The position numbers and the translations under genes are program-made. Below are positions 3,734 to 37,550 of a DNA stretch of 37,550 bases, one piece after another. The stretch's first letter is position 1; the number at the start of each line of letters is the position of its first letter. The stretch lies in the IMG/VR virus record IMGVR_UViG_3300045988_085446, positions 1 through 37,550 of that record; one strand, written 5' to 3'. This DNA is from a virus. The notes below the pieces were generated by a model, which was not told the origin of the DNA, ran no database searches, and saw nothing but the letters and a program-made list of their open reading frames with translations.

Positions 3734-4548
3734 ATCGGTTCACTCCTTTCAGCTTTCAAAAGCAAATCAAAGTTAAATGTAGAATTCCAATATACAACCT
3801 GTTTACCAGATTTTATTTTTTGAAAGATATCACTTCCCCTATTTCTATAGCGAAACAGGTTCACTGTTGCACCGTTTAATTTGAACAACTTAATTGTCTG
3901 TTTTTTTGAATCGATCTCAACTCTTTCTCCTGCTTGTATCGTATAGTTCAATATATAAGTATGTCCACCAATAGAAATAGCTGGATTCTGGGCATACCCA
4001 TATATGGTCAAGATAAATTCAGATTCACTAAAGCTATCATTTGCAACTTGTGCTGCGTATCCAGGAGATGCAGTATAGTCATATTCATATCCGTATGGAT
4101 AACCTCTGCCAGTTTCATCTACTGGTATATCTTTATACCGATATTCCTTTAAATCTTCTTGCACCCATGCATCTGCAACTGTTACAACCTTTAAAGATAA
4201 CTTTGTATATGGGCCTACCAAATACTCTGACTTATCACTTGCATAGATGAAACATTCAAGATAATAATCGCCAATATACAGTTTTCCGGGAACTTCATTG
4301 ATGATATCCTGCTCAAACAGTTCAAACATATCATTCTTTACATTCCTGCATATCCTCTGAGTCGGGCAACAAATAGCGATCGGAAGTGTCTTTTCTGTAA
4401 TTTTCTTCCGAAAATTCTCTACACTTTTCCGATCACTATCATAGATCCACTGATAGTCTCGAAGGTCATTTTCATTTGCAAAGATATATTTCTTTCCAAA
4501 CTCAAGAACATTCCCCTGACTATTTACATATTTTATATTCTCAAGCAT
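3724..4548 (-). CDS. Distal tail protein (Dit)-like phage tail protein
   Basis: Immediately downstream of, and overlapping, the tape measure gene. Pattern KYVNSQGNVLEF...GKLYIGDYYLECFIYAS is typical of siphovirus tail family proteins. Confidence 0.65.
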   Translation of the reverse strand: MLENIKYVNSQGNVLEFGKKYIFANENDLRDYQWIYDSDRKSVENFRKKITEKTLPIAICCPTQRICRNVKNDMFELFEQDIINEVPGKLYIGDYYLECFIYASDKSEYLVGPYTKLSLKVVTVADAWVQEDLKEYRYKDIPVDETGRGYPYGYEYDYTASPGYAAQVANDSFSESEFILTIYGYAQNPAISIGGHTYILNYTIQAGERVEIDSKKQTIKLFKLNGATVNLFRYRNRGSDIFQKIKSGKQVVYWNSTFNFDLLLKAERSEPIWM

Positions 4549-6892
4549 ATGTTCTTACCATCCTTCCAAATTCTCTACCATCAATCTTAAGCTTCGTACC
4601 TTCTGTAAGTGCTCTTACCATGTATTCATACATATTTTCATCAATATGTCTTACTACATCAAGAATCAAATACAGAACCTTTGATAACTCTGATTCATTG
4701 TCTACTGTTCTTCCTGTTGCCGCTGCCATCTGATCTGCTACCTTACTGATCCATTCTGTATTCTTCTCAAGCGGCACAACAGCCTCAGCTCCATTACCTT
4801 CAAGTATACCGACCTGGCCTTTCTTAAGTACACCACCTTCTGCAAGCTGTGGTGCATTCAATTTATCAAGCTTATTAATTGATACTCCCGGAATCGCATT
4901 AATAACGGATATACAAGCATTGATTGCCGATATAAAACCATTAATGATCTTTGTCGCTGTACCTAATATGCCATTGATAGCTGCTGTAACAGCTCCCTTG
5001 ATGCCATCTGCGATAGCTGTTCCGACCTTGGAAAAAATGTTCTTAATCTTCTGCCATGTATCTGAAAAGAACTTAACCATCGGTGAAAATGCATTCTTGA
5101 TACCAGCCCAAGCCTTGCCGAAAATGTCACTAAACCATGTACCTACTGATGCATATGCACCTTTTATTCCATTCCAGATTCCACTGAAAAATCCAGTAAC
5201 AGCCGACCAAACACTCTTAATTCCATTCCACGCTGTTGTAAAGATGCCTTTAAAAAACTTTCCTACTGCTGCAAATGCTGATTTTATACCATTCCATATG
5301 CCTTTAAAAAAGGCAGGTGCTGCATTCCAGACTTTCTTAATGCCTTTCCAAGCCATTGAAAACGATTCACGACAGTTGTTGATAACTGCCATAATTGCAA
5401 TAATCGCCGCTTCCAATGTGATCTCAAGCATCTCGCAAAACCATTCAAGTATCGGTTTCAGTACTCCGAGTATCTCTTCTGATATCAGACTTATCACATC
5501 AACAAGCGGAGGCAGGATCATATTGATAAGTTCCATCAATGGATCCAATATCATTAAGACCAGATTTATAATTGGATTGAGCAAATCAAGTATTGGCTGC
5601 AATAATTCCAGTACCGGCTGCAAAATCGAAATTAAAATAGGAAGAATCTGCGACACTATCTGCACAATAGGCGGCAAAAGCATATTAATCAAATTCGTAA
5701 GCGGCGGCAAAATAGTCTGAACTATCTGCAATAATGGTGGTAACAGTGTATTAACAAGAGATAATATAGTAGGCAAAATAGCTTGCAAAGTTCCGAATAT
5801 AGACTGTAATGCAGATGTAAGTGTCTGCCCCAGTTCTCCACCTATACCCGGCAACAAGGTTTCAAGTATGCCAGGAAGGTTATTCACCAATTCGGACAGC
5901 AACGATGTTGCGCCCTGTATAAGTGATGGCAGTATCTGTTCTATAAGTGGCGGTATATATGGTGCCAATTTCTGTGCAAGACTAGATATACCTGTAACTA
6001 TCCTTGGCAGTGTGTCTGCTATTCGTGGTACAAGGTTATCAGCTACAGCCATCACAGAATCAACAAGGTTATTGATCAGCACTCCAATGTCCTGTGATGG
6101 GTCGGCCATTCCTGTGAGCAGGTTCGTCCATGCAGACTTCATCATGCCGATAGATCCCTGTATTGTAGTGGCTGCTTCTTTTGCGGTTGTACCTGTTATC
6201 CCCATATCAGTCTGTACAACATGAATAGCCTCTATCATCTTATCAAACGATACACTATTGACGTTATCTGCTGTCACAGTCATGGAGTCACCGAGTACAC
6301 CCGAATCATTGATAAGCCTTGCCATCTCGGATGCAGTACCACCGTATCCTAATTTGAGGTTATCGAGCATTGTATAGTTCTGTTTTGCAAAACCTTGATA
6401 TGCATTCTGTATAGATGCCATATCAGTTCCCATCTTGTTGGCATTATCTGACATATCTGTTATGGCAAGATTTGCAGTTTCAGCCGCCTTTTCTGTGTCA
6501 CCACCCAAGCCTTGGAGCAATGACGCTGAAAAGCTCGTTACAGTGTCCATATACTCGTTTGCCGACAGCCCCGCCGTCTTATACGCATTATTTGCATACT
6601 CAACTACCTTATCTGAACTGTCCTTGAACAGTGTCTCAACACCACCAACAAGCTGCTCGTAGTCCGCATACTCGCTTACAGCTTTAGCAGTAATGCCAGC
6701 TATTCCAGTAGCCACAGCCGTTGTTGCAACCACGGCGACCTTTGCTGCCTTGAGCGCAAACTTGCCGATATTGCCAAACACAGAACTCATCTTTTTGCTT
6801 GTCTTCTCTGCCTTGTCGCCAGTCTCTTCAATTTTCTCATTCGCATCTTCATTTGATACTGCGATTCGTCCCAGTATCTTAAATACTTCCAA
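4541..6892 (-). CDS. Tail tape measure protein
   Basis: 783 aa; the largest gene, downstream of the chaperone pair. Has a TP901-type core-like stretch (VQTDMGITGTTAKEAATTIQGS), LPP(x8) repeats and WNGIK repeats. Probable TTG start after a GGGGG RBS. Confidence 0.9.
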   Translation of the reverse strand: MEVFKILGRIAVSNEDANEKIEETGDKAEKTSKKMSSVFGNIGKFALKAAKVAVVATTAVATGIAGITAKAVSEYADYEQLVGGVETLFKDSSDKVVEYANNAYKTAGLSANEYMDTVTSFSASLLQGLGGDTEKAAETANLAITDMSDNANKMGTDMASIQNAYQGFAKQNYTMLDNLKLGYGGTASEMARLINDSGVLGDSMTVTADNVNSVSFDKMIEAIHVVQTDMGITGTTAKEAATTIQGSIGMMKSAWTNLLTGMADPSQDIGVLINNLVDSVMAVADNLVPRIADTLPRIVTGISSLAQKLAPYIPPLIEQILPSLIQGATSLLSELVNNLPGILETLLPGIGGELGQTLTSALQSIFGTLQAILPTILSLVNTLLPPLLQIVQTILPPLTNLINMLLPPIVQIVSQILPILISILQPVLELLQPILDLLNPIINLVLMILDPLMELINMILPPLVDVISLISEEILGVLKPILEWFCEMLEITLEAAIIAIMAVINNCRESFSMAWKGIKKVWNAAPAFFKGIWNGIKSAFAAVGKFFKGIFTTAWNGIKSVWSAVTGFFSGIWNGIKGAYASVGTWFSDIFGKAWAGIKNAFSPMVKFFSDTWQKIKNIFSKVGTAIADGIKGAVTAAINGILGTATKIINGFISAINACISVINAIPGVSINKLDKLNAPQLAEGGVLKKGQVGILEGNGAEAVVPLEKNTEWISKVADQMAAATGRTVDNESELSKVLYLILDVVRHIDENMYEYMVRALTEGTKLKIDGREFGRMVRTYA

Positions 6893-6950
6893 AAGGGTCT
6901 ACCCCCTTTCCTCAATAATAAAAAAATAGAGACACACGTTCTGTGTGCCC

Positions 6951-7250
6951 CTATGGTTTAAAATTCTCTATGATTGACATAGAATCCCTTATGGTTGTTT
7001 CAAGTTCGCCTCTGCTCTCAAATGCTCCTGATCCGACAGGCTGCGAATTGCCACCTGATGTGCCGTACAGCCTTGCCTTGAAGTCATTGAATGATATGTT
7101 CTCCCAGCACTTATGGATATACATATCCCAGAGCTTATCATCATCGTCAAGACGCACAAACGTGCATACAAACTCATCAAAGCTCTGATTGTCTATCATC
7201 GTATCAAGCAGAGTGTACGGATCCGCATATCGTTTAAATATGAGATCCAT
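6951..7250 (-). CDS. Tail assembly chaperone, T-part (probably expressed as a -1 frameshift extension of 7265..7777)
   Basis: Lies between chaperone G and the tape measure. There is no Shine-Dalgarno before its ATG. Its frame is the -1 frame of the upstream gene and is open for 24 codons upstream of that gene's stop. Confidence 0.6.
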   Translation of the reverse strand: MDLIFKRYADPYTLLDTMIDNQSFDEFVCTFVRLDDDDKLWDMYIHKCWENISFNDFKARLYGTSGGNSQPVGSGAFESRGELETTIRDSMSIIENFKP

Positions 7251-22944: not shown

Positions 22945-24555
22945 CTACGCAAACATCATCAACTGTCCATTTGCTTCCTCTGCAACTCTCATATTTGCTG
23001 TTCTTCTTGCAACACACATTTCCGGAAGATTTGCTCTCACAAGTGCAGCCGGTATCGGCGGGCATACTGCATTACCGCATCTTCTTACCTGCTCCGTTCT
23101 CGGATATGTCTTGCCAGTATAATCATGATCAATAATGTAATCTTCTGGAAATCCCTGACATCCATATAACTCTCGTGGTTCCAACATTCGAAGTCCGATA
23201 TCCGCAATCTGGTAATCAACACCCTCAATCGTTACAAGACCAAATCTATCCTTTGTGGTAACCGTGTCTAATGGTTGTTCAATGTCCTGTCCGGTAGCAT
23301 CACCATAGTATTTGATCAGAAATGCCCGGACTTCTCCAAAATGCCCGGCTGATGTTGTCACTGTATGCAGTGGCTCTCTCTCATCCTGCCCTATCCCTGT
23401 CTTGTAAAACTTGCTGAGGAACGAAGTCACAAGGCCATATCTGTTTGAGCTGTCTACTGTCATGATCGGATTCTCTATACCCTGGCCTCGCACCTCATCT
23501 GAATTGGTCTCCGAATGGTATTGAATAAGAGTAGCTGCGACCAGCCGGTTATGATCCACTGTCGTTATCGTATCAATTGGGTCTTCGGCTTTACTCCCAC
23601 CACCTTTATAATTTCCGCCATACGTTTTATCTATAATTGGGGCAAGTCTCGGTTCTACAACTCCATATCCATGCTTGCCTGTGATTGTCGGCATCGGATC
23701 TCTTATATCCTGCGGCTTTCTTTCGCCGCCATGATTGCATTGAATGATGAATGGCTCTGGATTGTCCAGAACGAACTTCTTCAGCCCTCTTGCAATCCTC
23801 TGCATAGTCTTTGGCGCAAGTGGTCTCACCGACCGGATACCATACTTCTCCTTGATCTCCTCTGATGTATCAAAGATACTTGGACATGGTAGGCTAAAAT
23901 CAAGCTGTGTATATGCTCCAACATAAGGTTTGAGCAGTCCCATCTTGACCTCTTCACTGTCTGCCGGTGCATGTGTAGGCTTTGGCCACATGATAGGTGC
24001 ACCATCACACCTTGCGATCATAAAGAACCTTTTTCTTTTAGTCGGTGCTCCGTAGTCTGCCGCCACAAGCTCTCTGAACTGTACCTCATATCCCAGCTCA
24101 TTGAGCTGCTTTACAAACTGTCTGAATGTATCACCTTGCTTTGCCCTTATTGGATGATGTCCTCTGTTGAGTGGTCCCCATGTCTTGAACTCTTCGACAT
24201 TCTCAAGCATGATCACTCTCGGTCTCACAAGTGCCGCCCATCTGCATGCTACCCATGCCAGCCCTCTGATGTTCTTATCCTTTGGCTTGCCACCTTTGGC
24301 CTTGCTGAAATGCTTACAGTCTGGGGAGAACCAGGCAAGAGCTACCGGATGACCCTCACATGCTTTCACTGGATCAACCGCCCACACGTTCTCACAATAG
24401 TGCTTTGTGTTTGGATGATTGACCTTATGCATCCTTATGGCTTCCGGATCATGATTGATTGCTATATCAACACTGTACCCTGTAGCCATCTCAATTCCTG
24501 TTGATGCTCCACCACCACCGGCGAAGTTATCAACGATAAGTTCTCCGTTTATCAT
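22945..24555 (-). CDS. DNA (cytosine-5)-methyltransferase with long repeated variable region
   Basis: Motif I FAGGGGAS, motif IV SPDCKHFS, motif VI MLENV, motif VIII APTKRKRFFMIA, motif X GNAVCPP. Confidence 0.9.
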   Translation of the reverse strand: MINGELIVDNFAGGGGASTGIEMATGYSVDIAINHDPEAIRMHKVNHPNTKHYCENVWAVDPVKACEGHPVALAWFSPDCKHFSKAKGGKPKDKNIRGLAWVACRWAALVRPRVIMLENVEEFKTWGPLNRGHHPIRAKQGDTFRQFVKQLNELGYEVQFRELVAADYGAPTKRKRFFMIARCDGAPIMWPKPTHAPADSEEVKMGLLKPYVGAYTQLDFSLPCPSIFDTSEEIKEKYGIRSVRPLAPKTMQRIARGLKKFVLDNPEPFIIQCNHGGERKPQDIRDPMPTITGKHGYGVVEPRLAPIIDKTYGGNYKGGGSKAEDPIDTITTVDHNRLVAATLIQYHSETNSDEVRGQGIENPIMTVDSSNRYGLVTSFLSKFYKTGIGQDEREPLHTVTTSAGHFGEVRAFLIKYYGDATGQDIEQPLDTVTTKDRFGLVTIEGVDYQIADIGLRMLEPRELYGCQGFPEDYIIDHDYTGKTYPRTEQVRRCGNAVCPPIPAALVRANLPEMCVARRTANMRVAEEANGQLMMFA

Positions 24556-27071
24556 GGCTGCACCTCCAAGAAATCAAACAATGTCGGTGAATCAACTTCA
24601 TTCTCCTCTGCCTGTAAATACCCAACACCATCTCTGAAATAATCAGGATTCAGTTCACAGCCCTTACCGAACCGGTGCATTTTAACAGCCATCATCGGTA
24701 CCGTCATAAGGCCACCGAACGGATCATATACAACATCTCCCGGATTGCTATACCGGTTGATGATTCTTTCAACGATATCAAGCTGTAAAGGACATACATG
24801 CATGGTTGCCCTTCTCTGGCTCTGTGTCGTATTAAGAGTTCTCATTCTGTTAATATCATCCCATACCTCAAGCTGGTTCCATGATCCCGGAGCTACTACC
24901 ATGAATGTAGCTGGTAATCTTCCATCCATATCAAGCTCCTTTGCAAGTGCCACATGATCCTCATAGTTATATACATGCTCTCTGCTGTACTGTCTGTATA
25001 CTCTCTGTAAGTTGTCCACAGATACGCCCTCAAGTTCTTCTTTACTCACAAGCCTGTCTCCTGAGCTTCTCCAGTATCCGTGAGCATCTATCTGCCACTG
25101 TGCCCTTGTGTATTCATCCTTGGACTTAGTAACCGGCTCATCAGCGTATGCCTTGCTGTGATTCGTTGGCAGTTTGCGGAACAGTAAAATATATTCAGGG
25201 CATCCAACTCCCATCTTGGTACCATCCTTACACTGTTCCGTCCATCCAAGGCGGTAGGTCTGGTTGTTCTCTCTGACAACATCCGTCACAACTGTGATCA
25301 TGCCAAAATACTGAAATCCATGGCTCATATAATGTTCTATACAGTCAGCATGAAATGGTTCAATAGTTGGCATTCCTGTTCCGGTAGCATTTCCGAACAG
25401 CACTCTGTCTTTAACATGAATAGCTGCAACTCTTCCCGGCTTCAACACCCTTAAAAGCTCCGGTGTCAAGAAATCCATCTGTTCAAAGAACCTCTCTGTA
25501 TTCTGATTGTGTCCAAAATCGTTATAATTTGCTGAATATTCATAATGATTACCGAATGGTATTGACGTATGGATCAAATCAATGCTGTTGCTTTCCATCG
25601 CTCTTGTTTCTTCCACACAGTCACCATATACGGCTTCGTAATGATTTCCTCTTACTGTTCTTTCTTCTCTTGTACCTTCCACACCCATCTTCCTTTCTAA
25701 CCGCTCTGTTTTATTCGCTGAATCAAGTCCATACTTTTTCACGATCTCGATCATCTTCTGCACCATATGATCATGATTCTTCCATTTCTCAATTAAAGCA
25801 TTTTTAATCTCTCGCTCATTCTCCATATAGATTATGTCTATAACCACAGTTTCTTTTTGCAAGAATCTATAGCATCTGTGAATAGCCTGTATGAAGTCAT
25901 TGAACTCATAATCAATACCAACAAATATCTCCCTGTGACAGAATCGCTGAAAGTTACATCCTGAACCACTGATTGACTTCTTTGTTGCAAATAGTCTCGT
26001 TTTACCTTCTGAGAAATCTATAACTCTCTGTTCTCTAAGGTCATAGTCCATAGATCCGTATATATCCACTGTCTCCGGCAGAGCTTTCTTGATCGCATGT
26101 CGCTCTGCTTCCTGATCATGCCATAGTATAAAATGATCATCCGGCGAACTGTCTACAATCTCACGCATCTTTTCTACTCGCTCATTGATACTCTCCCGCT
26201 TCACCTTTGCAGCTTCTTTCAAACCTGCAGATGCCTGTGTAAACAACTCCATTTGCCCATCTTTATCAACTGTATCTCCATAGTGAACCGGTATCTCATG
26301 CCATCTAACATCCAGAGGTGGTAAGTCATAACCATTATCAGAATAATCTGGATTGAGATCCGATGGCTTTGTAATGAAAAGTGCCCAACTACTCACCCAC
26401 AGCCAGAACTCATCTTCCATGTTTGGGTACAGTGTCAGGTTATTTGCCTTTGTTGAATCCCTCTGAAAGAATCTTGTAAGTGCCTGTCCTGTATCCATGA
26501 CTTCAAGATATCCAGCATAGTGTATAAGCTCCTTGTACTTGTTCGGTGATGGTGTAGCAGTCGCTACGAGCTTGTAAGGTACATTTTTGAACTTATCAAG
26601 GAACGTCTGATATGTCTTAGATCCAAATGATCTAAGCACGGATGCTTCATCAAGTGAGGTTGCCGCAAAATACGATGGATCTATATCTCCGTCTCTCACT
26701 CTCTCATAATTCGTCAGAACGATCTGACTTGTGCTTGCCTCAACCTCTTCCATGGTTCGGCAATACTCTGGTTTCTCATAGCCCAGGAGTTCCACGGCAT
26801 CCCTTGTAAACTCCTGCTTAACTCCAAGTGGTAATACGATCAATGCTCTACCACCTGTATGTTCTGCTGCAATATGACAAAATTCTATTTCCTGTGCAGT
26901 CTTACCAAGTCCGAAAGACTCAAACAAGGCTCTACGTCCACCTTTCAGTGCCCATGCCACTGCATCTCTCTGGTGTGGCTTTAATGCTTTGTTAATACGG
27001 TTCTTGTCAACCGAAAAACCACTATCAACTGCAAGTTCTATCTTGCTTTCTAAAAACTCTTTGTAATTCAT
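24552..27071 (-). CDS. Fusion protein: N-terminal SNF2/DEAD-like helicase plus C-terminal N6/N4 (beta-class) DNA methyltransferase
   Basis: Helicase motif I FGLGKT and motif II LDEAS. Methyltransferase catalytic-position motif HTSIPFGN (encoded at 25554..25565). HVCPLQLDIVERII...GDVVYDPFGGLMT is the AdoMet motif I near the C-terminus. Confidence 0.8.
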   Translation of the reverse strand: MNYKEFLESKIELAVDSGFSVDKNRINKALKPHQRDAVAWALKGGRRALFESFGLGKTAQEIEFCHIAAEHTGGRALIVLPLGVKQEFTRDAVELLGYEKPEYCRTMEEVEASTSQIVLTNYERVRDGDIDPSYFAATSLDEASVLRSFGSKTYQTFLDKFKNVPYKLVATATPSPNKYKELIHYAGYLEVMDTGQALTRFFQRDSTKANNLTLYPNMEDEFWLWVSSWALFITKPSDLNPDYSDNGYDLPPLDVRWHEIPVHYGDTVDKDGQMELFTQASAGLKEAAKVKRESINERVEKMREIVDSSPDDHFILWHDQEAERHAIKKALPETVDIYGSMDYDLREQRVIDFSEGKTRLFATKKSISGSGCNFQRFCHREIFVGIDYEFNDFIQAIHRCYRFLQKETVVIDIIYMENEREIKNALIEKWKNHDHMVQKMIEIVKKYGLDSANKTERLERKMGVEGTREERTVRGNHYEAVYGDCVEETRAMESNSIDLIHTSIPFGNHYEYSANYNDFGHNQNTERFFEQMDFLTPELLRVLKPGRVAAIHVKDRVLFGNATGTGMPTIEPFHADCIEHYMSHGFQYFGMITVVTDVVRENNQTYRLGWTEQCKDGTKMGVGCPEYILLFRKLPTNHSKAYADEPVTKSKDEYTRAQWQIDAHGYWRSSGDRLVSKEELEGVSVDNLQRVYRQYSREHVYNYEDHVALAKELDMDGRLPATFMVVAPGSWNQLEVWDDINRMRTLNTTQSQRRATMHVCPLQLDIVERIINRYSNPGDVVYDPFGGLMTVPMMAVKMHRFGKGCELNPDYFRDGVGYLQAEENEVDSPTLFDFLEVQP

Positions 27072-33219: not shown

Positions 33220-33432
33220 TCATCCCATAGCCTTTATGAGATCATTTAACTGCTCTATTGTGATGCCCTGTCTCGCCGCAAGCTTCCCGGGAGAAATGTT
33301 ATAAGTCCAGATGCTTGACATCTTGATCGCATCACCTATATCCAATAAGTTTCTCTGCATTCCGATTCTCACAAACTGAGGGGAGCATCCCATCACTTCA
33401 GCCGCCTGATTCGGTGTTATCTTCTTTACCAT
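33220..33432 (-). CDS. Small HTH DNA-binding protein (excisionase/early-regulator-like)
   Basis: 70 aa. ITPNQAAEVMGCSPQFVRIGMQ is HTH-like. It is the second gene of the early leftward operon. Confidence 0.5.
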   Translation of the reverse strand: MVKKITPNQAAEVMGCSPQFVRIGMQRNLLDIGDAIKMSSIWTYNISPGKLAARQGITIEQLNDLIKAMG

Positions 33433-33460
33433 GTCGATTTCTCCTTTCTTCTCGTTTTTG

Positions 33461-33469
33461 TGTTACAAT
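33461..33469 (+). promoter_or_regulatory. Extended -10 element (TGtTACAAT) for the plus-strand membrane-protein gene
   Basis: tgttacaat is read directly about 25 nt upstream of the ATG at 33493. The -35 is weak. Confidence 0.4.
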
Positions 33470-33492
33470 GGTAAAAAATTATGGAGGCAACT

Positions 33493-33810
33493 ATGTCAAG
33501 CACACTATTTACAATAATTACTGGTATCATCTCTGCTGCTATTTATGACTATTTGAAAAAGCACCTTGCACTAAAGCAAGAAAATGAATCCACTATGAAA
33601 TATTCCAAGGAATATGTTCACAAAGTAAAAATTGAATTTTATGTGAGTTTCTTTATTGGAATTGCCCTAACCTTCTTTCACCCAACAGGCAAATTTTTAC
33701 CATTTGTAATCTCCACACTTTCATACATGTCTTTCTTCATCTCTCTTATGGGTTTTATGTGCCTTGTAGATGTGGTAAATCACTTTCTCAATGGAGACTC
33801 CAATAAGTAG
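33493..33810 (+). CDS. Three-TM membrane protein, antisense to the early lytic operon (superinfection-exclusion-type candidate)
   Basis: Hydrophobic segments LFTIITGIISAAIYDYL, FYVSFFIGIALTFF and FLPFVISTLSYMSFFISLMGFMCLV. Start set at the second ATG, 5 nt after GGAGG; the track ORF starts at 33481. Confidence 0.6.
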   Translation: MSSTLFTIITGIISAAIYDYLKKHLALKQENESTMKYSKEYVHKVKIEFYVSFFIGIALTFFHPTGKFLPFVISTLSYMSFFISLMGFMCLVDVVNHFLNGDSNK

Positions 33811-33848
33811 ACAGATGATTGTCTTTATCAACTATGACTCTCCTTTCT

Positions 33849-33864
33849 ATCACTTTAAGTGGAT
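33849..33864. promoter_or_regulatory. Operator-like site O1 (atcactttaagtggat), an exact 16-bp copy of the site in the lytic promoter
   Basis: Identical 16-mer at 34098..34113. It contains the inverted half-sites CACTT/AAGTG and overlaps the stop codon of the Cro-like gene. Confidence 0.55.
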
Positions 33865-34064
33865 TTCTTAGGCAAAAAAATATAGTCTAATGGCATCTTA
33901 TATAATCTAGATAGTGTATCCAGTATAGCAAAAGATGGCGTAACTATACCTTTTTCCCAGTTAATCACAGTTTTTTTACTCACTTTAAGCTTTTTCGCAA
34001 CATCTTCCTGTGTCATTCCAGCATTTACCCTTGCTGCAGCTAATGTAATCTTAACACTACGCAA
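33855..34064 (-). CDS. Cro-like XRE-family HTH regulator
   Basis: RVNAGMTQEDVAKKLKVSKKTVINWEKG is an XRE HTH. It is divergent from the CI-like gene. TTG start. Confidence 0.75.
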   Translation of the reverse strand: MRSVKITLAAARVNAGMTQEDVAKKLKVSKKTVINWEKGIVTPSFAILDTLSRLYKMPLDYIFLPKKST

Positions 34065-34089
34065 CTGTTATCATCTCCTTTCACATATC

Positions 34090-34118
34090 AGAATACCATC
34101 ACTTTAAGTGGATGTCAA
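34090..34118 (-). promoter_or_regulatory. Early lytic promoter: -35 TTGACA (34113..34118), 17-nt spacer, -10 TATTCT (34090..34095)
   Basis: Read on the minus strand. Operator O2 (34100..34110) lies in the spacer and O3 (34119..34129) abuts the -35. Confidence 0.65.
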
Positions 34119-34129
34119 CACTAAAAGTG
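34100..34129. promoter_or_regulatory. Operator-like sites O2 (cactttaagtg) and O3 (cactaaaagtg)
   Basis: CACTnnnAAGTG-type inverted half-sites read directly inside the divergent promoter region. Confidence 0.55.
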
Positions 34130-34147
34130 AATTTTTTTCATTTTCAG

Positions 34148-34176
34148 TTGATTCAAATTCCCTTTAGGTGTATAAT
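34148..34176 (+). promoter_or_regulatory. Repressor (lysogeny operon) promoter: -35 TTGATT (34148..34153), 17-nt spacer, -10 TATAAT (34171..34176)
   Basis: Read directly, about 24 nt upstream of the ATG at 34200, which has an AGGAGG RBS. Confidence 0.65.
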
Positions 34177-34199
34177 AAGCATTGCAAGGAGGTGTTGAT

Positions 34200-34592
34200 A
34201 TGCCATACGAGGAATTTAATAAATTATTTGCTAAAAATCTACGATATTACTTAAATAAAAATAATATGACACAGGCTGAACTTGCAAAACGCTTAAATGT
34301 TGGAACTACATCTGTATACAACTGGTGCAACGGTATTAAATCACCAAGAATGGATAAAGTAGATGCCATGTGTGATATATTCAACTGTAAGAGATCTAAC
34401 CTAATTGAAGATAAAGAACATGTTGAAGAAAATGAATATTATCTTGATCCGGAAACAGCTAAAAAGGCACAGGAGATCTTTGAGAACAAGCAGCTCTCTC
34501 TTCTCTTCGATGCCGCAAGGGACGCAGAGCCAGAGGACTTGGAGACAGTTCACACAATGCTCATGGCTCTCAAGAATAAAGAGAAACGATAA
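34200..34592 (+). CDS. CI-like XRE-family repressor
   Basis: NMTQAELAKRLNVGTTSVYNWCNG is an XRE HTH, followed by a C-terminal non-HTH extension. ATG after AGGAGG; the track ORF begins at 34182. Confidence 0.8.
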   Translation: MPYEEFNKLFAKNLRYYLNKNNMTQAELAKRLNVGTTSVYNWCNGIKSPRMDKVDAMCDIFNCKRSNLIEDKEHVEENEYYLDPETAKKAQEIFENKQLSLLFDAARDAEPEDLETVHTMLMALKNKEKR

Positions 34593-34662
34593 TAATGTAC
34601 AAAAAACATCCCACGGTATTTGTTATTGTATCTACGACTATGTTACAAGGGGGATGAGTTAA

Positions 34663-34893
34663 TTGTATGATATAAATGTACAGATGATGGATCTGAAGAC
34701 TACAAAAGTTAAAGAAACTGTTACCTGCAATGAAGATGGTTCATATACTATCTTTCTTAATACACGATTCACACAGGAGCAGCTTAACGATGCTTATATC
34801 CATGCACTCAACCATATCATCAGAGCAGACTTCGATAAACACACTAGCTCTGTAGATACCATTGAGGCTTATGCACATGGGTTACAAAAATAA
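34663..34893 (+). CDS. Mini ImmA/IrrE-like protein with degenerate metalloprotease motif (HALNH)
   Basis: YTIFLNTRFTQEQLNDAYIHALNHII parallels the ImmA pattern (iyiN..l....q.ftlaHELGHi), but the protein is only 76 aa and has Ala at the catalytic Glu position. TTG start after GGGGGA. Confidence 0.5.
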   Translation: MYDINVQMMDLKTTKVKETVTCNEDGSYTIFLNTRFTQEQLNDAYIHALNHIIRADFDKHTSSVDTIEAYAHGLQK

Positions 34894-34917
34894 TTAACAA
34901 ATGAAGGGAGAGATTCA

Positions 34918-36486
34918 ATGAATCAAAAACAAGAAAACAAATGGTATTTAAGTACATGGTTTATTGCTATTCTATGCGCATGCTGGTTTCTTATACTTCC
35001 AGCAATCGGCGGCATAGTATTGATGATAATGAAGACCTTGGATGAAAAGAAACAAAAAGAAACCAATCAACAAATTAGTCAACAGAATGCCCAACTTGCG
35101 GCCCAGAATGCTCAGATGAATCAAGCAATGCAAGACATGAATAAGACTATGCAGGATTTAGGGGTGCATGACCATCAGCAGTCGATGGCTAAGCTTAACC
35201 AGGTGAATGCCGAAATATCCGAAAACCTTGCCACTATAGATAAATTGCGTTCAGACATTGCTACACTTCAGGCAAAAGATGATAAACTGCAAAAATCAGT
35301 AGCGACCCAGGAGCGAAAGATCTCTCGTGCTAAGGAGATCTACAGCAGTATTGAATATGCATTAAATAACTTCATTACTGCTGACATTCCATATAACGAA
35401 TGCCGAATTAGCCAATCAGATATTGAGGATGCTAATCTCATTGCCCCATCTGTTATCCTTAAATTACATTGTATGGATATAAAAAGCTTGCGAAAAGCAT
35501 ACAGAGAAAATGAGAAATCCATTGACACTCTCAGACAGCAATATGCTATCAGATACACTACTAAAGCCAACAAAACTATTTACGACCTCATTGTCAAGGG
35601 GCTGGAATCTGAGATGCAGAACGTCTTGTACAATTTAAAATATGACAAGCTTGATAACGGTATTGAACAAATAAAAGATATCTGTGCTAAGTATCTAAAG
35701 ATTGCAGCTGAAGGTAATCAAACAATTGCTGGAACTCTTACTAAGTTCATAGGTGAAATGGAATATCTTTTCATTAATGCTGCAAAGATAGAGTATAACT
35801 ACTACGTCAAGAAAGAACAGGCAAAGCAAGAACAGCTTGCAATCAAAGAGCAGATGCGCCAGGAGGCAGAGGAGCGCAAGGCCCTTGAGGCCGAACGTAA
35901 AAAAGTGGAGCTTGAAGAGTCAAAATATGAGAATCAGATATCTTCCCTCAAAGAACAGGCGGAAGCTTCAGAGGGTGAAGCCCTTGCTGCTCTGCAAGCT
36001 CGTATCCTTGAACTGCAGGCTCAGCTTGCAGATGTAACAATCAAAAAGGATGAAATAGCAAAGTTGCAAAATGGTAAAGCTGGTAATGTTTATATTATCA
36101 GCAACTTGGGTTCATTTGGTGAGAATGTATTCAAAGTGGGAATGACAAGAAGAATAAATCCACAGGATAGAGTTAATGAACTTGGAGATGCTTCTGTTCC
36201 GTTCAAATTTGATGTACACAGCTTTATTTTCTCTGATGACGCTTCCGGTCTTGAAACCGAACTTCACAAGAGACTTAATGATCGCAGAGTAAACAAGGTA
36301 AATCTTAGAAAAGAGTTCTTTAATGTATCAATAGATGAACTTGAAGAACTTGTAAATGAGATCTGCCCTACTGCAGAGTTCAACAGAACAATGCTTGCTG
36401 AAGAATACAGACAGTCACTGTCAAGTTCTGAAGCATATACCTCTGAATATTCAACAGAGAATGAGACAGATGATGAGGATGAATAA
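34918..36486 (+). CDS. Membrane-anchored DUF4041 + T5orf172 (GIY-YIG-like) nuclease-domain protein (SNIPE-type)
   Basis: TM segment aa 9..38 and long coiled-coil-like regions. C-terminal block GNVYIISNLGSFGENVFKVGMTRRINPQDRVNELGDASVPFKFDVHSFIFSDDASGLETELHKRLNDRRVNKVNLRKEFF (nt 36082..36357). RBS GAAGGGAG. Confidence 0.8.
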   Translation: MNQKQENKWYLSTWFIAILCACWFLILPAIGGIVLMIMKTLDEKKQKETNQQISQQNAQLAAQNAQMNQAMQDMNKTMQDLGVHDHQQSMAKLNQVNAEISENLATIDKLRSDIATLQAKDDKLQKSVATQERKISRAKEIYSSIEYALNNFITADIPYNECRISQSDIEDANLIAPSVILKLHCMDIKSLRKAYRENEKSIDTLRQQYAIRYTTKANKTIYDLIVKGLESEMQNVLYNLKYDKLDNGIEQIKDICAKYLKIAAEGNQTIAGTLTKFIGEMEYLFINAAKIEYNYYVKKEQAKQEQLAIKEQMRQEAEERKALEAERKKVELEESKYENQISSLKEQAEASEGEALAALQARILELQAQLADVTIKKDEIAKLQNGKAGNVYIISNLGSFGENVFKVGMTRRINPQDRVNELGDASVPFKFDVHSFIFSDDASGLETELHKRLNDRRVNKVNLRKEFFNVSIDELEELVNEICPTAEFNRTMLAEEYRQSLSSSEAYTSEYSTENETDDEDE

Positions 36487-36596
36487 TATCATCTTCATAT
36501 TATAAAAAATCCCCCAGATGCTACCAACACCTGAGGGAAGTTACCCATAAACCGAAGGCTTATGAATAACGCTCTGAACAAGCTACATTATATCAC

Positions 36597-36628
36597 AAGC
36601 CTTCTCATTTTGATAGGCTTATTTTTTA
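36597..36628 (+). terminator. Weak intrinsic terminator between the nuclease gene and int
   Basis: Stem aagcct (36597..36602) / aggctt (36615..36620), followed by attttttat. Confidence 0.45.
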
Positions 36629-36638
36629 TGCCTATTTT
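36610..36638 (+). promoter_or_regulatory. Possible int promoter: TTGATA, 17 nt, TATTTT
   Basis: Read directly. It overlaps the weak terminator, about 25 nt upstream of the int ATG. Confidence 0.3.
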
Positions 36639-36661
36639 TAAGATAAGAAAGGATGATTGAT

Positions 36662-37550
36662 ATGAGAAATGCAAACGGATTCGGATCTGTGTATAAGCTG
36701 TCTGGCAAGCGCAGGAAACCATGGATTGCTCGTAAAACGAAAGGATGGGCTATTGACGAAGAATCAGGAAAGGCTAAGCAGTTATATGCTACCATCGGCT
36801 ATTACAGTACCCGGGCAGAAGCTCTTACTGCTCTGACCAATTATAATCAGAATCCCTATGATATTGATACCGTAAATATTACATTCTCTGAACTCTATGA
36901 TAAATGGTCAGATATACATTTTCAGGAAATAGTACCATCTGCCGCAAGAACATGGGTATCTGCTTACAATCACTCAAAGCCACTCTGGGACATGCGAATG
37001 AGAGATATTCGTCCTAATCACATGGAGGGAACGATCCGGAATGCAGATGTTGGTCAGAGTACGAAGCAAAGAATGAAATCTCTCTACAACATGCTCTATA
37101 AATATGCTATGAAGCTGGAGATTGTTGATAAGAACTATGCCCAGATGTGTGATTCCATCAAGCGTGGAAAGTCTCAGATCATTCGTGTTCCATTTACACC
37201 GGAGGAAATAGATCTACTCTGGAAGAACATAAACTATAGTGTTGTTGATATGATTCTAATTGGTATATACAGCGGATGGCGACCACAAGAACTGTCTATC
37301 TTGAAAATAACTGATATTGATCTGGAAAATAATACCATGTTCGGCGGTCTTAAGACTGATGTAGGGCGCAACAGGTGCGTTCCTATTCATCCAAAAATAA
37401 GAGATTTGATCATAAAACGAGTAGATCAGGCTAAAGAATTGGAATCCGATTATTTATTCAATGATCCGGATAGTCAGTCTGGTATGCGCATGACATACGA
37501 CAAATACAGAAGCCGTTGGAATAAGGTCATGGGAAAATTAAAACTCTCCC
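36662..37550 (+). CDS. int: Tyrosine recombinase (phage integrase), N-terminal and central part; open to the window end and continues at 33..202
   Basis: My own translation: MRNANGFGSVYKLSGKRRKPWIARKT... (AP2-like arm-binding N-terminal domain). GWRPQEL is the first catalytic Arg box. No stop before 37550; in frame with 11..202 through the 32-bp overlap. Confidence 0.9.
   Translation, partial: MRNANGFGSVYKLSGKRRKPWIARKTKGWAIDEESGKAKQLYATIGYYSTRAEALTALTNYNQNPYDIDTVNITFSELYDKWSDIHFQEIVPSAARTWVSAYNHSKPLWDMRMRDIRPNHMEGTIRNADVGQSTKQRMKSLYNMLYKYAMKLEIVDKNYAQMCDSIKRGKSQIIRVPFTPEEIDLLWKNINYSVVDMILIGIYSGWRPQELSILKITDIDLENNTMFGGLKTDVGRNRCVPIHPKIRDLIIKRVDQAKELESDYLFNDPDSQSGMRMTYDKYRSRWNKVMGKLKLS
37519..37550 (+). 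repeat. 32-bp terminal overlap identical to 1..32 (circularisation signature)
   Basis: gaataaggtcatgggaaaattaaaactctccc occurs at both ends. Confidence 0.95.

What the first reader, a model, noticed from the sequence alone, without database searches (positions are those of the whole stretch)
34918..36486. Lysogeny-operon cargo: membrane-anchored DUF4041 + T5orf172 (GIY-YIG-like) nuclease, a SNIPE-type anti-phage candidate carried by the phage itself
This 522-aa ORF follows the CI-like repressor and the mini-ImmA gene on the same strand, upstream of int. That is the classic slot for lysogen-expressed superinfection immunity.

Seen directly:
- One long hydrophobic segment (aa 9..38, WYLSTWFIAILCACWFLILPAIGGIVLMIM).
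- Gln/Asn-rich and then Glu/Lys-rich coiled-coil-like stretches.
- A C-terminal block GNVYIISNLGSFGENVFKVGMTRRINPQDRVNELGDASVPFKFDVHSFIFSDDASGLETELHKRLNDRRVNKVNLRKEFF.

As far as I remember, that block tracks the consensus of T5orf172/MUG113 nuclease domains that follow DUF4041. From memory, TM + DUF4041 + nuclease is also the architecture of the recently reported E. coli SNIPE defence protein, which is proposed to cut incoming phage DNA at the membrane.

Here the protein sits in a phage of an apparently Gram-positive-type host. It has an extended coiled coil and an acidic tail (ENETDDEDE). Its sensor or partner, and how the resident phage avoids self-targeting, are therefore open questions.
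Basis: partly seen in the sequence, partly recalled or inferred. Interest (0 to 1): 0.8.

Follow-up and report, generated by a model that had tools for sequence, protein, structure and literature searches.

The report
Prophage-borne SNIPE-family membrane nuclease
This gene in a gut Clostridia prophage encodes a relative of SNIPE (PD-λ-1), a known membrane-anchored nuclease that cuts incoming phage DNA, so it is a predictable new member of a characterised defence family, with a diverged middle domain, rather than a new kind of system.

Summary
It has one N-terminal hydrophobic anchor, about 115 aa of coiled coil, a helical middle domain, a long linker helix, a T5orf172/MUG113 (GIY-YIG-type) nuclease domain and an acidic tail.

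It matches the PADLOC PD-Lambda-1 model over its full length (E 1e-85). It is 37% identical over 295 aa to the characterised E. coli SNIPE (E 3e-49), and about 72% identical in the nuclease core.

The DUF4041 claim is not confirmed at sequence level. Pfam PF13250 does not match, and only a weak collinear profile match (P 0.002) and a matching predicted helix order link the middle domain to DUF4041.

The gene sits between a CI-type repressor and the integrase of a temperate siphovirus-type phage, probably of Coprococcus. Relatives occupy the same slot in many gut Clostridia prophages, and the gene is exchanged as a discrete cassette.

Carriage by phages, activity in a Gram-positive host and the absence of self-targeting are already published for this family. 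Verdict: new member of a known kind, from a divergent sub-clade. Interest is low to moderate.

The parts
33855..34064 (-). Cro-like HTH regulator. It is transcribed divergently from the repressor and is the first gene of the lytic-direction operon.
   Evidence: Pfam HTH_3 6.1e-14. A promoter-like site lies at 34118..34090 on the - strand.
34090..34176 (.). Divergent promoter-like switch region between cro and the repressor.
   Evidence: TTGACA-17-TATTCT on the - strand and TTGATT-17-TATAAT on the + strand, each 10 of 12 matches. These are consensus matches only: the number of such sites in the region equals the chance expectation.
34182..34592 (+). CI-type HTH repressor. The true start is probably the ATG at 34200, which is preceded by AAGGAGG.
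   Evidence: Pfam HTH_3 6.3e-12 and HTH_26 1.2e-10. PHROG transcriptional regulator/repressor families. Sequence read.
34663..34893 (+). orf76, a small conserved gene that follows HTH-only repressors. It is a possible degenerate ImmA-like partner of the repressor and is not shown to belong to the nuclease system.
   Evidence: phrog_20886 1.8e-21, function unknown. No Pfam, NCBIfam or PADLOC hit. The motif is HALNH here but HEMKH or HELFH in distant relatives. The gene is absent where the repressor carries an S24 peptidase domain.
34918..36486 (+). SNIPE/PD-λ-1-family protein, 522 aa (whole gene including the stop codon).
   Evidence: ORF. PADLOC PD-Lambda-1 1.1e-85. phrog_1847 7e-102. BLASTP to E. 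coli SNIPE 3e-49.
34942..35031 (+). N-terminal hydrophobic membrane anchor, aa 9-38.
   Evidence: Kyte-Doolittle maximum 2.53; the only segment above 1.6. Helical in the AF2 model. The sequence is conserved among close relatives.
35032..35379 (+). Coiled-coil-like helical stalk, aa 39-154, Q/N-rich then charged.
   Evidence: AF2 helices 12-81 and 83-154 with pLDDT 75-92. Composition.
35413..35817 (+). Helical middle domain, aa 166-300, in the position of DUF4041. It is Pfam-negative, lacks the β-hairpin of E. coli SNIPE and has about neutral net charge.
   Evidence: No PF13250 hit. hhalign with broad profiles gives P 0.002, collinear with SNIPE 130-267. Helices 166-184, 188-210, 216-239 and 245-264 against SNIPE H143-165, hairpin, H185-212 and H219-236. 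Net charge +1 against +8.
35818..36072 (+). Linker helices, aa 301-385, homologous to the α-helix downstream of DUF4041 in SNIPE.
   Evidence: hhalign probability 100%, E 8.6e-60, over our aa 289-502 against SNIPE 256-471. AF2 helices 268-350 and 354-385.
36073..36387 (+). T5orf172/MUG113 (GIY-YIG-type) nuclease domain, aa 386-490. Key residues are Y392 (36091-36093), R411/R412 (36148-36153) and the catalytic-equivalent E446 (36253-36255).
   Evidence: Pfam hits. Alignment to SNIPE with E414 matching E446. Y392 is invariant, and R411, R412 and E446 are at least 90% conserved, across 73 diverse relatives.
36388..36483 (+). Disordered acidic C-terminal tail, aa 491-522. It is typical of this sub-clade.
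   Evidence: 12 D+E against 2 K+R in aa 486-522. pLDDT below 50. Median net charge of the last 25 aa is -8 in this clade and 0 in the DUF4041 clade.
36510..36538 (-). GC-rich hairpin between the nuclease gene and int. It scores as an intrinsic terminator only for the - strand. It lies inside the exchanged cassette.
   Evidence: 13-pair stem followed by TTTTTTATAA on the - strand. It falls within the shared block that ends at about 36648.
34437..36648 (+). Recombination module shared at 91-97.5% DNA identity with phages that have different HTH/operator/cro regions and unrelated integrases. A smaller cassette, about 34868/34891 to 36648, holds only the nuclease gene and the hairpin.
   Evidence: blastn of the window against related IMG/VR and genome loci. 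Protein identities of the neighbouring genes.
36662..37550 (+). Tyrosine integrase, truncated by the end of the window.
   Evidence: Pfam Phage_integrase 5.1e-6 and Phage_int_SAM_3 0.044. Sequence.

Best explanation
The gene encodes a SNIPE/PD-λ-1-family defence nuclease carried as lysogenic-conversion cargo by a temperate siphovirus-type phage of a gut Clostridia host, probably Coprococcus.

**Shown here**
- Full-length homology to the family.
- A single N-terminal hydrophobic anchor.
- A conserved linker helix and a GIY-YIG-type nuclease domain with the catalytic Glu (E446).
- A position 24 nt downstream of orf76, in the same orientation as the repressor and upstream of int.
- The same slot in many unrelated prophages.
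- Exchange between phages as a discrete cassette.

**Inferred from the published mechanism of E. coli SNIPE (PMC13190303)**
- In a lysogen the protein is made with the repressor transcript and sits in the cytoplasmic membrane, with a short N-terminus outside and the rest in the cytoplasm.
- It is kept inactive towards the chromosome by membrane tethering and auto-inhibition.
- When another siphovirus injects its genome, the middle domain engages the tape-measure or injection complex and the DNA, and the nuclease cuts the entering DNA.
- The resident prophage is unaffected because its DNA is never injected into its own lysogen. Homoimmune copies are in any case repressed.

**Specific to this clade and of unknown consequence**
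- The middle domain has diverged from Pfam DUF4041: no β-hairpin and about neutral charge.
- A strongly acidic tail is present.
For: - **Family match.** PADLOC PD-Lambda-1 at 1.1e-85 and 3.2e-79 over aa 32-512 and 21-517. BLASTP to E. coli SNIPE: 37% identity over 295 aa, E 3e-49. hhalign of a close-relative profile against the SNIPE-family profile: probability 100%, E 8.6e-60, for linker plus nuclease.
- **Catalytic residues.** Y392 is invariant, and R411, R412 and E446 (equivalent to SNIPE E414) are at least 90% conserved, across 73 diverse relatives.
- **Membrane anchor.** A single TM-like segment. 73 of 99 long relatives also have one, against the 59% + 7% published for the family.
- **Shared architecture.** The predicted helix order of the middle region matches that of SNIPE. 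Both models have the same outlier top hit in BFVD over about 380-415 columns.
- **Phage identity.** Tape measure protein, major head protein, portal, large terminase, RecT and exonuclease are present.
- **Recurrent slot.** The order Cro | repressor > (small gene) > nuclease > (HicAB and others) > tyrosine or serine integrase > host genes recurs.
- **Distribution.** 78 IMG/VR viral loci and 49 genome loci, mostly Clostridia.
- **Literature.** Mechanism, and no effect on prophage induction. Defence by a Gram-positive homologue. Enrichment in phages. Native E. coli SNIPE lies inside a lambdoid prophage.
Against: - There is no functional, expression or localisation data for this protein or its clade.
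- Pfam DUF4041, the domain needed for DNA and tape-measure binding in E. coli SNIPE, is not detected.
- HMMs for the two middle-domain types are mutually exclusive: 201 against 172 proteins, none with both. An iterative search finds no bridging sequences.
- The middle domain lacks the net positive charge seen in SNIPE: +1 against +8, with clade medians of -1 against +3. The DNA-binding step may therefore differ.
- The Tyr of the second GIY-YIG motif is Phe here (F405). However, Phe also occurs in about a third of canonical DUF4041-type relatives.
- The AF2 model is only moderately confident: pLDDT 71, and 50-77 in the nuclease domain.
- The promoter scan is no better than chance, so co-transcription with the repressor is inferred from gene spacing only.
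- The positive-inside rule does not decide the membrane topology.
Confidence: 0.72

Rival explanations
1. It is a SNIPE-like chassis with a different sensor. The anchor, linker and nuclease are SNIPE-derived, but the middle domain is a non-homologous or functionally re-purposed module. Together with the acidic tail it gives a different trigger, or a different target, from tape-measure/DNA recognition. One possibility is that the tail acts as an auto-inhibitory DNA mimic that is released by a phage or membrane cue.
For: - PF13250 is absent in this protein and in all 120 closest relatives.
- The two middle-domain HMMs are mutually exclusive.
- jackhmmer does not bridge the two types.
- Narrow-profile hhalign gives E 0.28.
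- The acidic tail and the neutral middle domain co-vary with this clade.
- Published SNIPE is said to be auto-inhibited by an unknown means.
Against: - Broad-profile hhalign aligns the whole domain collinearly with DUF4041 at P 0.002, and the best-supported stretch is the Pfam core motif.
- E232 is at least 90% conserved in an alignment that mixes both types.
- The predicted helix order is the same, apart from the hairpin.
- The published analysis already reports DUF4041 as moderately diversified.
Confidence: 0.17
2. It is a selfish mobile (homing-type) T5orf172 nuclease gene. It spreads between phage genomes by cutting naive alleles and does not act as host defence.
For: - T5orf172 genes are documented as homing endonucleases that sit at boundaries of genetic exchange between phages.
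- Here a 98-99% identical gene is flanked by diverged sequence with sharp breakpoints at the gene borders.
Against: - The described homing T5orf172 proteins carry Zn-finger DNA-binding domains (CapR, DUF723, DUF4397) and lie next to essential genes of lytic phages.
- This protein has none of those domains.
- It has a membrane anchor and a roughly 115-aa stalk, is full-length homologous to a proven defence protein, and sits in the lysogeny module.
- Cassette exchange is typical of moron genes in general.
Confidence: 0.04
3. It is an abortive-infection or toxin-type effector. The tethered nuclease is released or activated on infection, degrades the host chromosome and kills the cell, rather than cutting the incoming DNA.
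For: E. coli SNIPE without its TM segment is highly toxic and cuts host DNA. Neighbouring cargo in the same slot includes toxin-antitoxin pairs such as HicAB.
Against: For the characterised homologue, defence acts by direct cleavage of the injected DNA and the infected cells survive. Nothing in the sequence suggests a release mechanism.
Confidence: 0.05

Closest known systems
E. coli SNIPE (PD-λ-1; WP_000195116.1; Vassallo et al. 2022 PMC9519451; Saxton et al. 2026 PMC13190303)
   Same: - Same order of parts: short N-terminus, single TM, about 110 aa of coiled coil, helical middle domain, long linker helix, T5orf172/GIY-YIG nuclease.
- 37% identity over 295 aa and about 72% in the nuclease core, with the catalytic Glu conserved.
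- Both are single-gene cargo of temperate phages.
   Different: - The middle domain does not match Pfam DUF4041, lacks the β-hairpin (SNIPE about 172-195) and is about neutral rather than +8.
- The C-terminal tail is acidic.
- Phe replaces Tyr before the KIG motif.
- The host is a Gram-positive-type Clostridia bacterium, so ManYZ/LamB-type partners do not apply.
- The gene is in the repressor-int slot rather than the ren/nin region.
S. thermophilus PD-Lambda-1 (EU01 allele; bioRxiv 10.1101/2024.10.22.618286)
   Same: A PD-Lambda-1-family protein of a Firmicute. It has been shown experimentally to give more than 3 log protection against siphoviruses.
   Different: It is chromosomal rather than prophage-borne in that study.
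Prophage superinfection-exclusion proteins of Gram-positive siphoviruses (lactococcal Sie2009-type; Ltp of S. thermophilus phage TP-J34). This comparison rests on my own knowledge and was not tested here.
   Same: They are membrane-associated, lysogen-expressed and encoded between the repressor and integrase genes. They block the DNA-injection step of superinfecting siphoviruses, and Ltp acts through the tape measure protein.
   Different: They are small non-enzymatic proteins or lipoproteins that block entry. They have no nuclease domain and no sequence relationship to this protein.
T5orf172 homing endonucleases of ICP1, T5-like and other lytic phages (PMC10448857)
   Same: They share the T5orf172 (GIY-YIG-type) catalytic domain and are associated with recombination boundaries.
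   Different: They have Zn-finger DNA-binding domains, no membrane anchor or stalk, and lie next to essential genes in lytic genomes.

Membership tests
SNIPE / PD-λ-1 | Significant full-length match to the family profile and to the characterised protein | tested here: met
   PADLOC PDLC03976 at 1.1e-85 (aa 32-512 against profile 13-481 of 491) and PDLC03977 at 3.2e-79. BLASTP to WP_000195116.1 at 3e-49. For reference, E. coli SNIPE itself scores 1.9e-198 on the same model.
SNIPE / PD-λ-1 | N-terminal membrane-targeting region (single-pass TM in E. coli SNIPE; 59% of homologues have one TM and 7% have two) | tested here: met
   One hydrophobic segment, aa 9-38, with a Kyte-Doolittle maximum of 2.53, helical in the AF2 model. 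This is a prediction from hydropathy only; no dedicated TM predictor was available. Localisation and topology are not testable here.
SNIPE / PD-λ-1 | DUF4041 middle domain (Pfam PF13250), required for defence and for DNA and tape-measure binding | tested here: inconclusive
   **Against**
- No PF13250 hit at E up to 10, although SNIPE scores 1.2e-19.
- None of the 120 closest relatives has it.
- The clade HMMs are mutually exclusive.
- jackhmmer does not bridge the two types.
- Narrow-profile hhalign gives E 0.28.

**For**
- 30 of 73 full-length relatives have it.
- Broad-profile hhalign gives P 0.002, collinear over 122 columns.
- The predicted helix order is the same, apart from the β-hairpin.
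- Both models share the same BFVD top hit.
SNIPE / PD-λ-1 | Linker α-helix followed by a C-terminal GIY-YIG (T5orf172/MUG113) nuclease with the catalytic Glu (E414 in SNIPE) | tested here: met
   MUG113 at 7.8e-19 and T5orf172 at 4.7e-17. hhalign E 8.6e-60 over linker plus nuclease. E446 corresponds to E414. G389, Y392, G408, T410 and N459 are invariant, and R411, R412 and E446 are at least 90% conserved.
SNIPE / PD-λ-1 | Anti-phage activity by cleavage of DNA during injection, and association with tape measure proteins | not testable with these tools
   This is known only for E. coli SNIPE. Defence alone is also known for S. thermophilus PD-Lambda-1.
T5orf172 homing endonucleases | Zn-finger DNA-binding domain(s) (CapR, DUF723, DUF4397) fused to T5orf172, and a location beside essential genes of lytic phages | tested here: not met
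   No such domain in the Pfam scan. The gene lies in the lysogeny module. The defining features are taken from PMC10448857.
   No Pfam, NCBIfam or PADLOC hit. The only match is phrog_20886, of unknown function. The motif is HALNH in this copy. Distant relatives of orf76 carry HEMKH or HELFH, so an ImmA-like origin is possible but unproven.

The most novel reading that the evidence does not exclude
Gut Clostridia prophages carry a distinct SNIPE sub-family. In it, the DNA- and tape-measure-binding DUF4041 domain has been replaced, or remodelled beyond recognition, into a neutral all-helical module, and a strongly acidic C-terminal tail has been added. This would imply a different way of sensing injection across a Gram-positive envelope. 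It would also suggest a tail-based auto-inhibition mechanism that could explain how tethered SNIPE nucleases are kept off the chromosome.
Probability: 0.15. Interest if true: 0.55.

Novelty: new member of a known kind. Interest (0 to 1): 0.3.

Why it matters
- **Reach of the family.** The finding extends a recently characterised defence mechanism, a membrane-tethered nuclease that cuts DNA as it is injected, to a very common class of uncultured human-gut Clostridia prophages. In these prophages the gene occupies the classic superinfection-exclusion slot and is traded as a cassette between phages with different immunity regions and integrases.
- **Annotation.** Proteins now labelled 'GIY-YIG nuclease family protein', 'chromosome segregation ATPase' or 'helicase' in these genomes can be recognised as PD-λ-1/SNIPE relatives. 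Pfam DUF4041 misses the whole sub-clade.
- **Biology.** The diverged middle domain and acidic tail are natural variants for probing how SNIPE recognises tape measure proteins and how it is auto-inhibited. They may also help explain phage-phage exclusion in gut Lachnospiraceae.
- **Limits.** It does not reveal a new kind of system.

Tried and rejected
- **Megablast of 33400-37550 against deposited phages.** No match. The phage is known only from metagenomes.
- **Sequence search of PDB.** Only chance-level hits.
- **Foldseek of the model against PDB.** Nothing below E 0.05; the matches are dominated by long helices, so the GIY-YIG fold could not be confirmed against solved structures.
- **Pfam on the isolated middle region at E up to 10.** Only coiled-coil noise.
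- **Narrow-profile hhalign, cross-HMM searches and jackhmmer.** None linked the middle domain to DUF4041. Only broad profiles gave a weak signal.
- **NCBIfam.** No informative hit.
- **Supplements of the SNIPE paper.** They hold no taxon list that would show whether Clostridia homologues were in the published set of 474.
- **Promoter scan.** No enrichment over chance, so no promoter claim is made beyond the consensus matches.
- **Homing-endonuclease and abortive-infection readings.** Considered and given low weight; see the rival explanations.
- **orf76 as a partner of the nuclease.** Rejected. It co-occurs with HTH-only repressors, is absent with an S24-type repressor, and a recombination breakpoint separates it from the nuclease gene in L053 and L056.
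Full report
**1. The observation**

The ORF at 34918-36486 (+) is real and encodes 522 aa. An AGGGAG ribosome-binding site lies about 8 nt upstream of its ATG, and the gap to the preceding 76-aa ORF is only 24 nt.

- A single strongly hydrophobic stretch at aa 9-38. It is the only segment with a 19-residue Kyte-Doolittle mean above 1.6, and the maximum is 2.53.
- A Q/N-rich then charged helical region.
- The quoted block at aa 389-468.
- The acidic C-terminus.

Pfam places MUG113 (7.8e-19) and T5orf172 (4.7e-17) on aa 390-483.

Two details need correction. Residue 447 is Thr, and the conserved Glu is E446. The coiled coil is not longer than in E. coli SNIPE.

**2. What the window is**

The rest of the window is a temperate tailed phage. 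It encodes:
- a tape measure protein (4541-6892, -)
- a major head protein
- a portal
- a large terminase
- a DNA methyltransferase
- a helicase
- RecT
- a RecE-like exonuclease.

Only small ORFs lie between the head genes and the tape measure gene. I infer a siphovirus-type tail from that; no sheath-sized gene is present.

At the right end lies a divergent switch:
- a Cro-like HTH on the - strand (33855-34064);
- a CI-like HTH repressor on the + strand, whose likely start is the ATG at 34200 behind AAGGAGG;
- orf76, then the nuclease gene, then a hairpin, then a tyrosine integrase starting at 36662 and cut by the window end.

A 99%-identical copy of the nuclease gene lies in an uncultured Coprococcus assembly. 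Other relatives are overwhelmingly in Lachnospiraceae, Ruminococcus, Roseburia, Clostridium and other Clostridia genomes, and in 78 IMG/VR viral contigs.

**3. Family assignment**

PADLOC's two PD-Lambda-1 models match at 1.1e-85 and 3.2e-79 over essentially the full length. PD-λ-1 was found in an E. coli functional screen (PMC9519451) and renamed SNIPE in a mechanistic study (PMC13190303). That study shows a single-pass inner-membrane protein with a periplasmic N-terminus and with a cytoplasmic DUF4041 domain and GIY-YIG nuclease. It cleaves λ DNA during injection. It depends on E414 and on DUF4041, and it associates with ManYZ and with tape measure proteins. It does not act on an induced resident prophage.

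I recovered the native E. coli gene by searching the E. coli genomes with a primer from that paper's supplement. It is WP_000195116.1, 500 aa, and is present in 131 of 5,426 complete genomes.

BLASTP of the window protein against it gives 37% identity over 295 aa, E 3e-49, aligning our aa 211-502 with SNIPE 196-471. The nuclease core is about 72% identical, and E414 aligns with E446. A profile of close relatives against a profile of the E. coli-type family gives hhalign probability 100% and E 8.6e-60 for linker helix plus nuclease. Across 73 diverse relatives, G389, Y392, G408, T410, P415 and N459 are invariant, and R411, R412, E446 and H450 are at least 90% conserved.

The family is very large:
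- 3,073 representatives at 50% identity with E ≤ 0.001.

**4. The DUF4041 question**

Evidence against a detectable DUF4041:
- Pfam PF13250 scores 1.2e-19 on SNIPE aa 198-252. It gives nothing on our protein, whether scanned whole or as an isolated middle region at E up to 10.
- None of the 120 closest relatives has a precomputed PF13250 hit. All 120 closest relatives of E. coli SNIPE have one.
- 30 of 73 more distant full-length relatives of our protein have the hit.
- HMMs built from the two middle-region types split the 391 collected proteins into 201 of our type and 172 of DUF4041 type, with none matching both.
- jackhmmer from our middle region does not reach the other type.
- hhalign of narrow profiles is not significant, E 0.28.

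Evidence for a diverged DUF4041:
- With broader profiles (Neff 4.5 and 5.3), hhalign aligns the whole domain collinearly, our aa 168-300 with SNIPE 130-267, at P 0.002. The best-supported stretch falls on the Pfam core motif.
- E232 is at least 90% conserved in an alignment that mixes both types.
- The AF2 models have the same order of elements. SNIPE has H143-165, a β-hairpin at about 173-183, H185-212, H219-236 and then the long linker helix. Ours has H188-210, a short turn, H216-239, H245-264 and then the long linker helix.
- Both models have the same outlier top hit in BFVD, A0A8S5M6J8, over 415 and 378 columns. Nuclease-only hits cover about 100 columns.

My reading is a strongly diverged DUF4041 that has lost the hairpin. 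A domain replacement is not excluded.

The clade differs in two further ways. Its last 25 residues are strongly acidic: median net charge -8 (or -5 using only the 50%-identity representatives) against 0 for the DUF4041 type. Its middle domain is about neutral: representative medians of -1 against +3, and +1 for our protein against +8 for E. coli SNIPE. Phe replaces Tyr before the KIG motif in nearly all members, but Phe also occurs in about a third of the canonical type.

**5. Genomic slot and mobility**

Gene calls around three different homologues (89%, 67% and 62% identical) show the same order: Cro (-), HTH repressor (+), sometimes a small gene, the nuclease gene, sometimes extra cargo (HicAB, a DUF4177 protein), an integrase, then host genes such as smpB or cotJ.

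The slot holds whatever the neighbouring genes are:
- the repressor may be HTH-only or HTH plus an S24 peptidase;
- the integrase may be a tyrosine or a large serine recombinase.

Eighteen IMG/VR loci and the Coprococcus contig carry 98-99% identical proteins. Yet their repressors are only about 50% identical, their Cro proteins 40-60%, and their integrases unrelated, apart from L052.

At DNA level the shared block has sharp ends. It begins at window 34433-34437, inside the repressor gene just after its HTH domain. It ends at 36640-36648, 14-22 nt before the int ATG. In L053 and L056 there is a second breakpoint in the orf76/nuclease gap, at 34868-34891. The nuclease gene with its downstream hairpin is therefore exchanged as a cassette.

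From my own knowledge, this repressor-integrase position is where lactococcal and streptococcal temperate siphoviruses carry their superinfection-exclusion genes (sie2009, ltp).

**6. Mechanism**

The best-supported explanation is that the protein works like E. coli SNIPE. It would be made in the lysogen from the repressor transcript. That is inferred from spacing and orientation only, because the promoter scan is at chance level. It would be tethered to the membrane by aa 9-38, with the stalk, middle domain and nuclease in the cytoplasm. It would cut the DNA of a superinfecting siphovirus as that DNA enters.

SNIPE does not affect λ prophage induction or yield, because it acts only during injection, and tethering plus auto-inhibition protect the chromosome.

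What may differ here is recognition. The host has a Gram-positive-type envelope, the middle domain is not positively charged, and the tail is acidic.

Rivals are given low weight:
- A homing-type T5orf172 nuclease. Those proteins carry Zn-finger DNA-binding domains and sit beside essential genes of lytic phages.
- An abortive-infection toxin.

**7. Novelty**

Most of what made the finding look exciting is already in the literature or in public data:
- The family and its mechanism are published.
- The founding member lies inside a lambdoid prophage, between ren and the nin region.
- PD-Lambda-1 is reported as significantly more frequent in phages than in bacteria.
- A Firmicute homologue gives more than 3 log protection against S. 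thermophilus siphoviruses.
- Deposited temperate phages of Streptococcus, Corynebacterium, Salmonella (ES18 gp19) and E. coli (phiP27) carry relatives, and one record is annotated 'PD-lambda-1'.

No deposited phage genome has a match covering 80% or more of this protein. The variant described here is so far a feature of uncultured gut phages.

I classify it as a new member of a known kind, from a divergent sub-clade, with interest 0.3. The most novel reading that the evidence does not exclude is a remodelled sensor domain plus tail-based auto-inhibition. I give that a probability of about 0.15.

Noticed in passing
window 34663-34893 (orf76), with relatives in L074, L080, L106 and others: The small gene after the repressor belongs to a conserved family (phrog_20886). 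Its more distant members carry a true HExxH motif (HEMKH, HELFH), but the window copy and its close relatives have HALNH, HAIGH or HACRH, so the catalytic Glu is lost. The gene accompanies HTH-only repressors and is absent where the repressor has an S24 peptidase domain (L137). It could be a miniaturised, possibly inactive, ImmA-like partner of the repressor.
   Followed up: partly
window 34433-34437 (inside the repressor gene, about codon 79 counted from the ATG at 34200): The left recombination breakpoint shared by many related phages falls between the HTH domain and the C-terminal part of the repressor. Phages therefore swap immunity specificity (HTH, operators, cro) while keeping the repressor C-terminal region together with orf76 and the nuclease gene.
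   Followed up: partly
window 36510-36538: A 13-bp GC-rich hairpin lies between the nuclease gene and int. It has a T-run only on the - strand, so it scores as a terminator for transcription that enters antisense from the int side. On the + strand it has no U-tract. It travels with the cassette.
   Followed up: no
window 33481-33810 (+): A 109-aa ORF with about three hydrophobic segments lies on the + strand, embedded among - strand early genes just beyond cro. It has only sub-threshold Pfam hits to membrane-protein families (EI24/CysZ, E 0.0023). It might be a second lysogen-expressed membrane moron, or it might be spurious.
   Followed up: no
L137 7902-8507; L129 7688-7897: In related prophages the gap between the SNIPE-like gene and the integrase holds further cargo: a HicA/HicB toxin-antitoxin pair, or a small DUF4177 protein. 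The repressor-int interval therefore behaves as a small defence/cargo hotspot.
   Followed up: no
window 22945-27071 (-): A 535-aa DNA methyltransferase lies directly next to an 838-aa protein that combines helicase and methyltransferase PHROG hits. These may act as phage anti-restriction or self-protection functions.
   Followed up: no
L001 (E. coli NZ_CP023142) 5557-7059: Native E. coli SNIPE lies on the opposite strand to the flanking ren and P22AR/nin genes of a lambdoid prophage, so it looks like a moron insertion there too. The exact primer sequence is found in 131 of 5,426 complete E. coli genomes, always on the chromosome.
   Followed up: partly
BFVD entry A0A8S5M6J8 (Siphoviridae sp. 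ct73V17), and deposited phage records H6, H7, H24 and H30: SNIPE-family proteins in public phage records are annotated as 'Helicase', 'Chromosome segregation ATPase', 'AAA-ATPase' or 'putative phage membrane protein'. This appears to be systematic mis-annotation driven by the coiled-coil regions.
   Followed up: no
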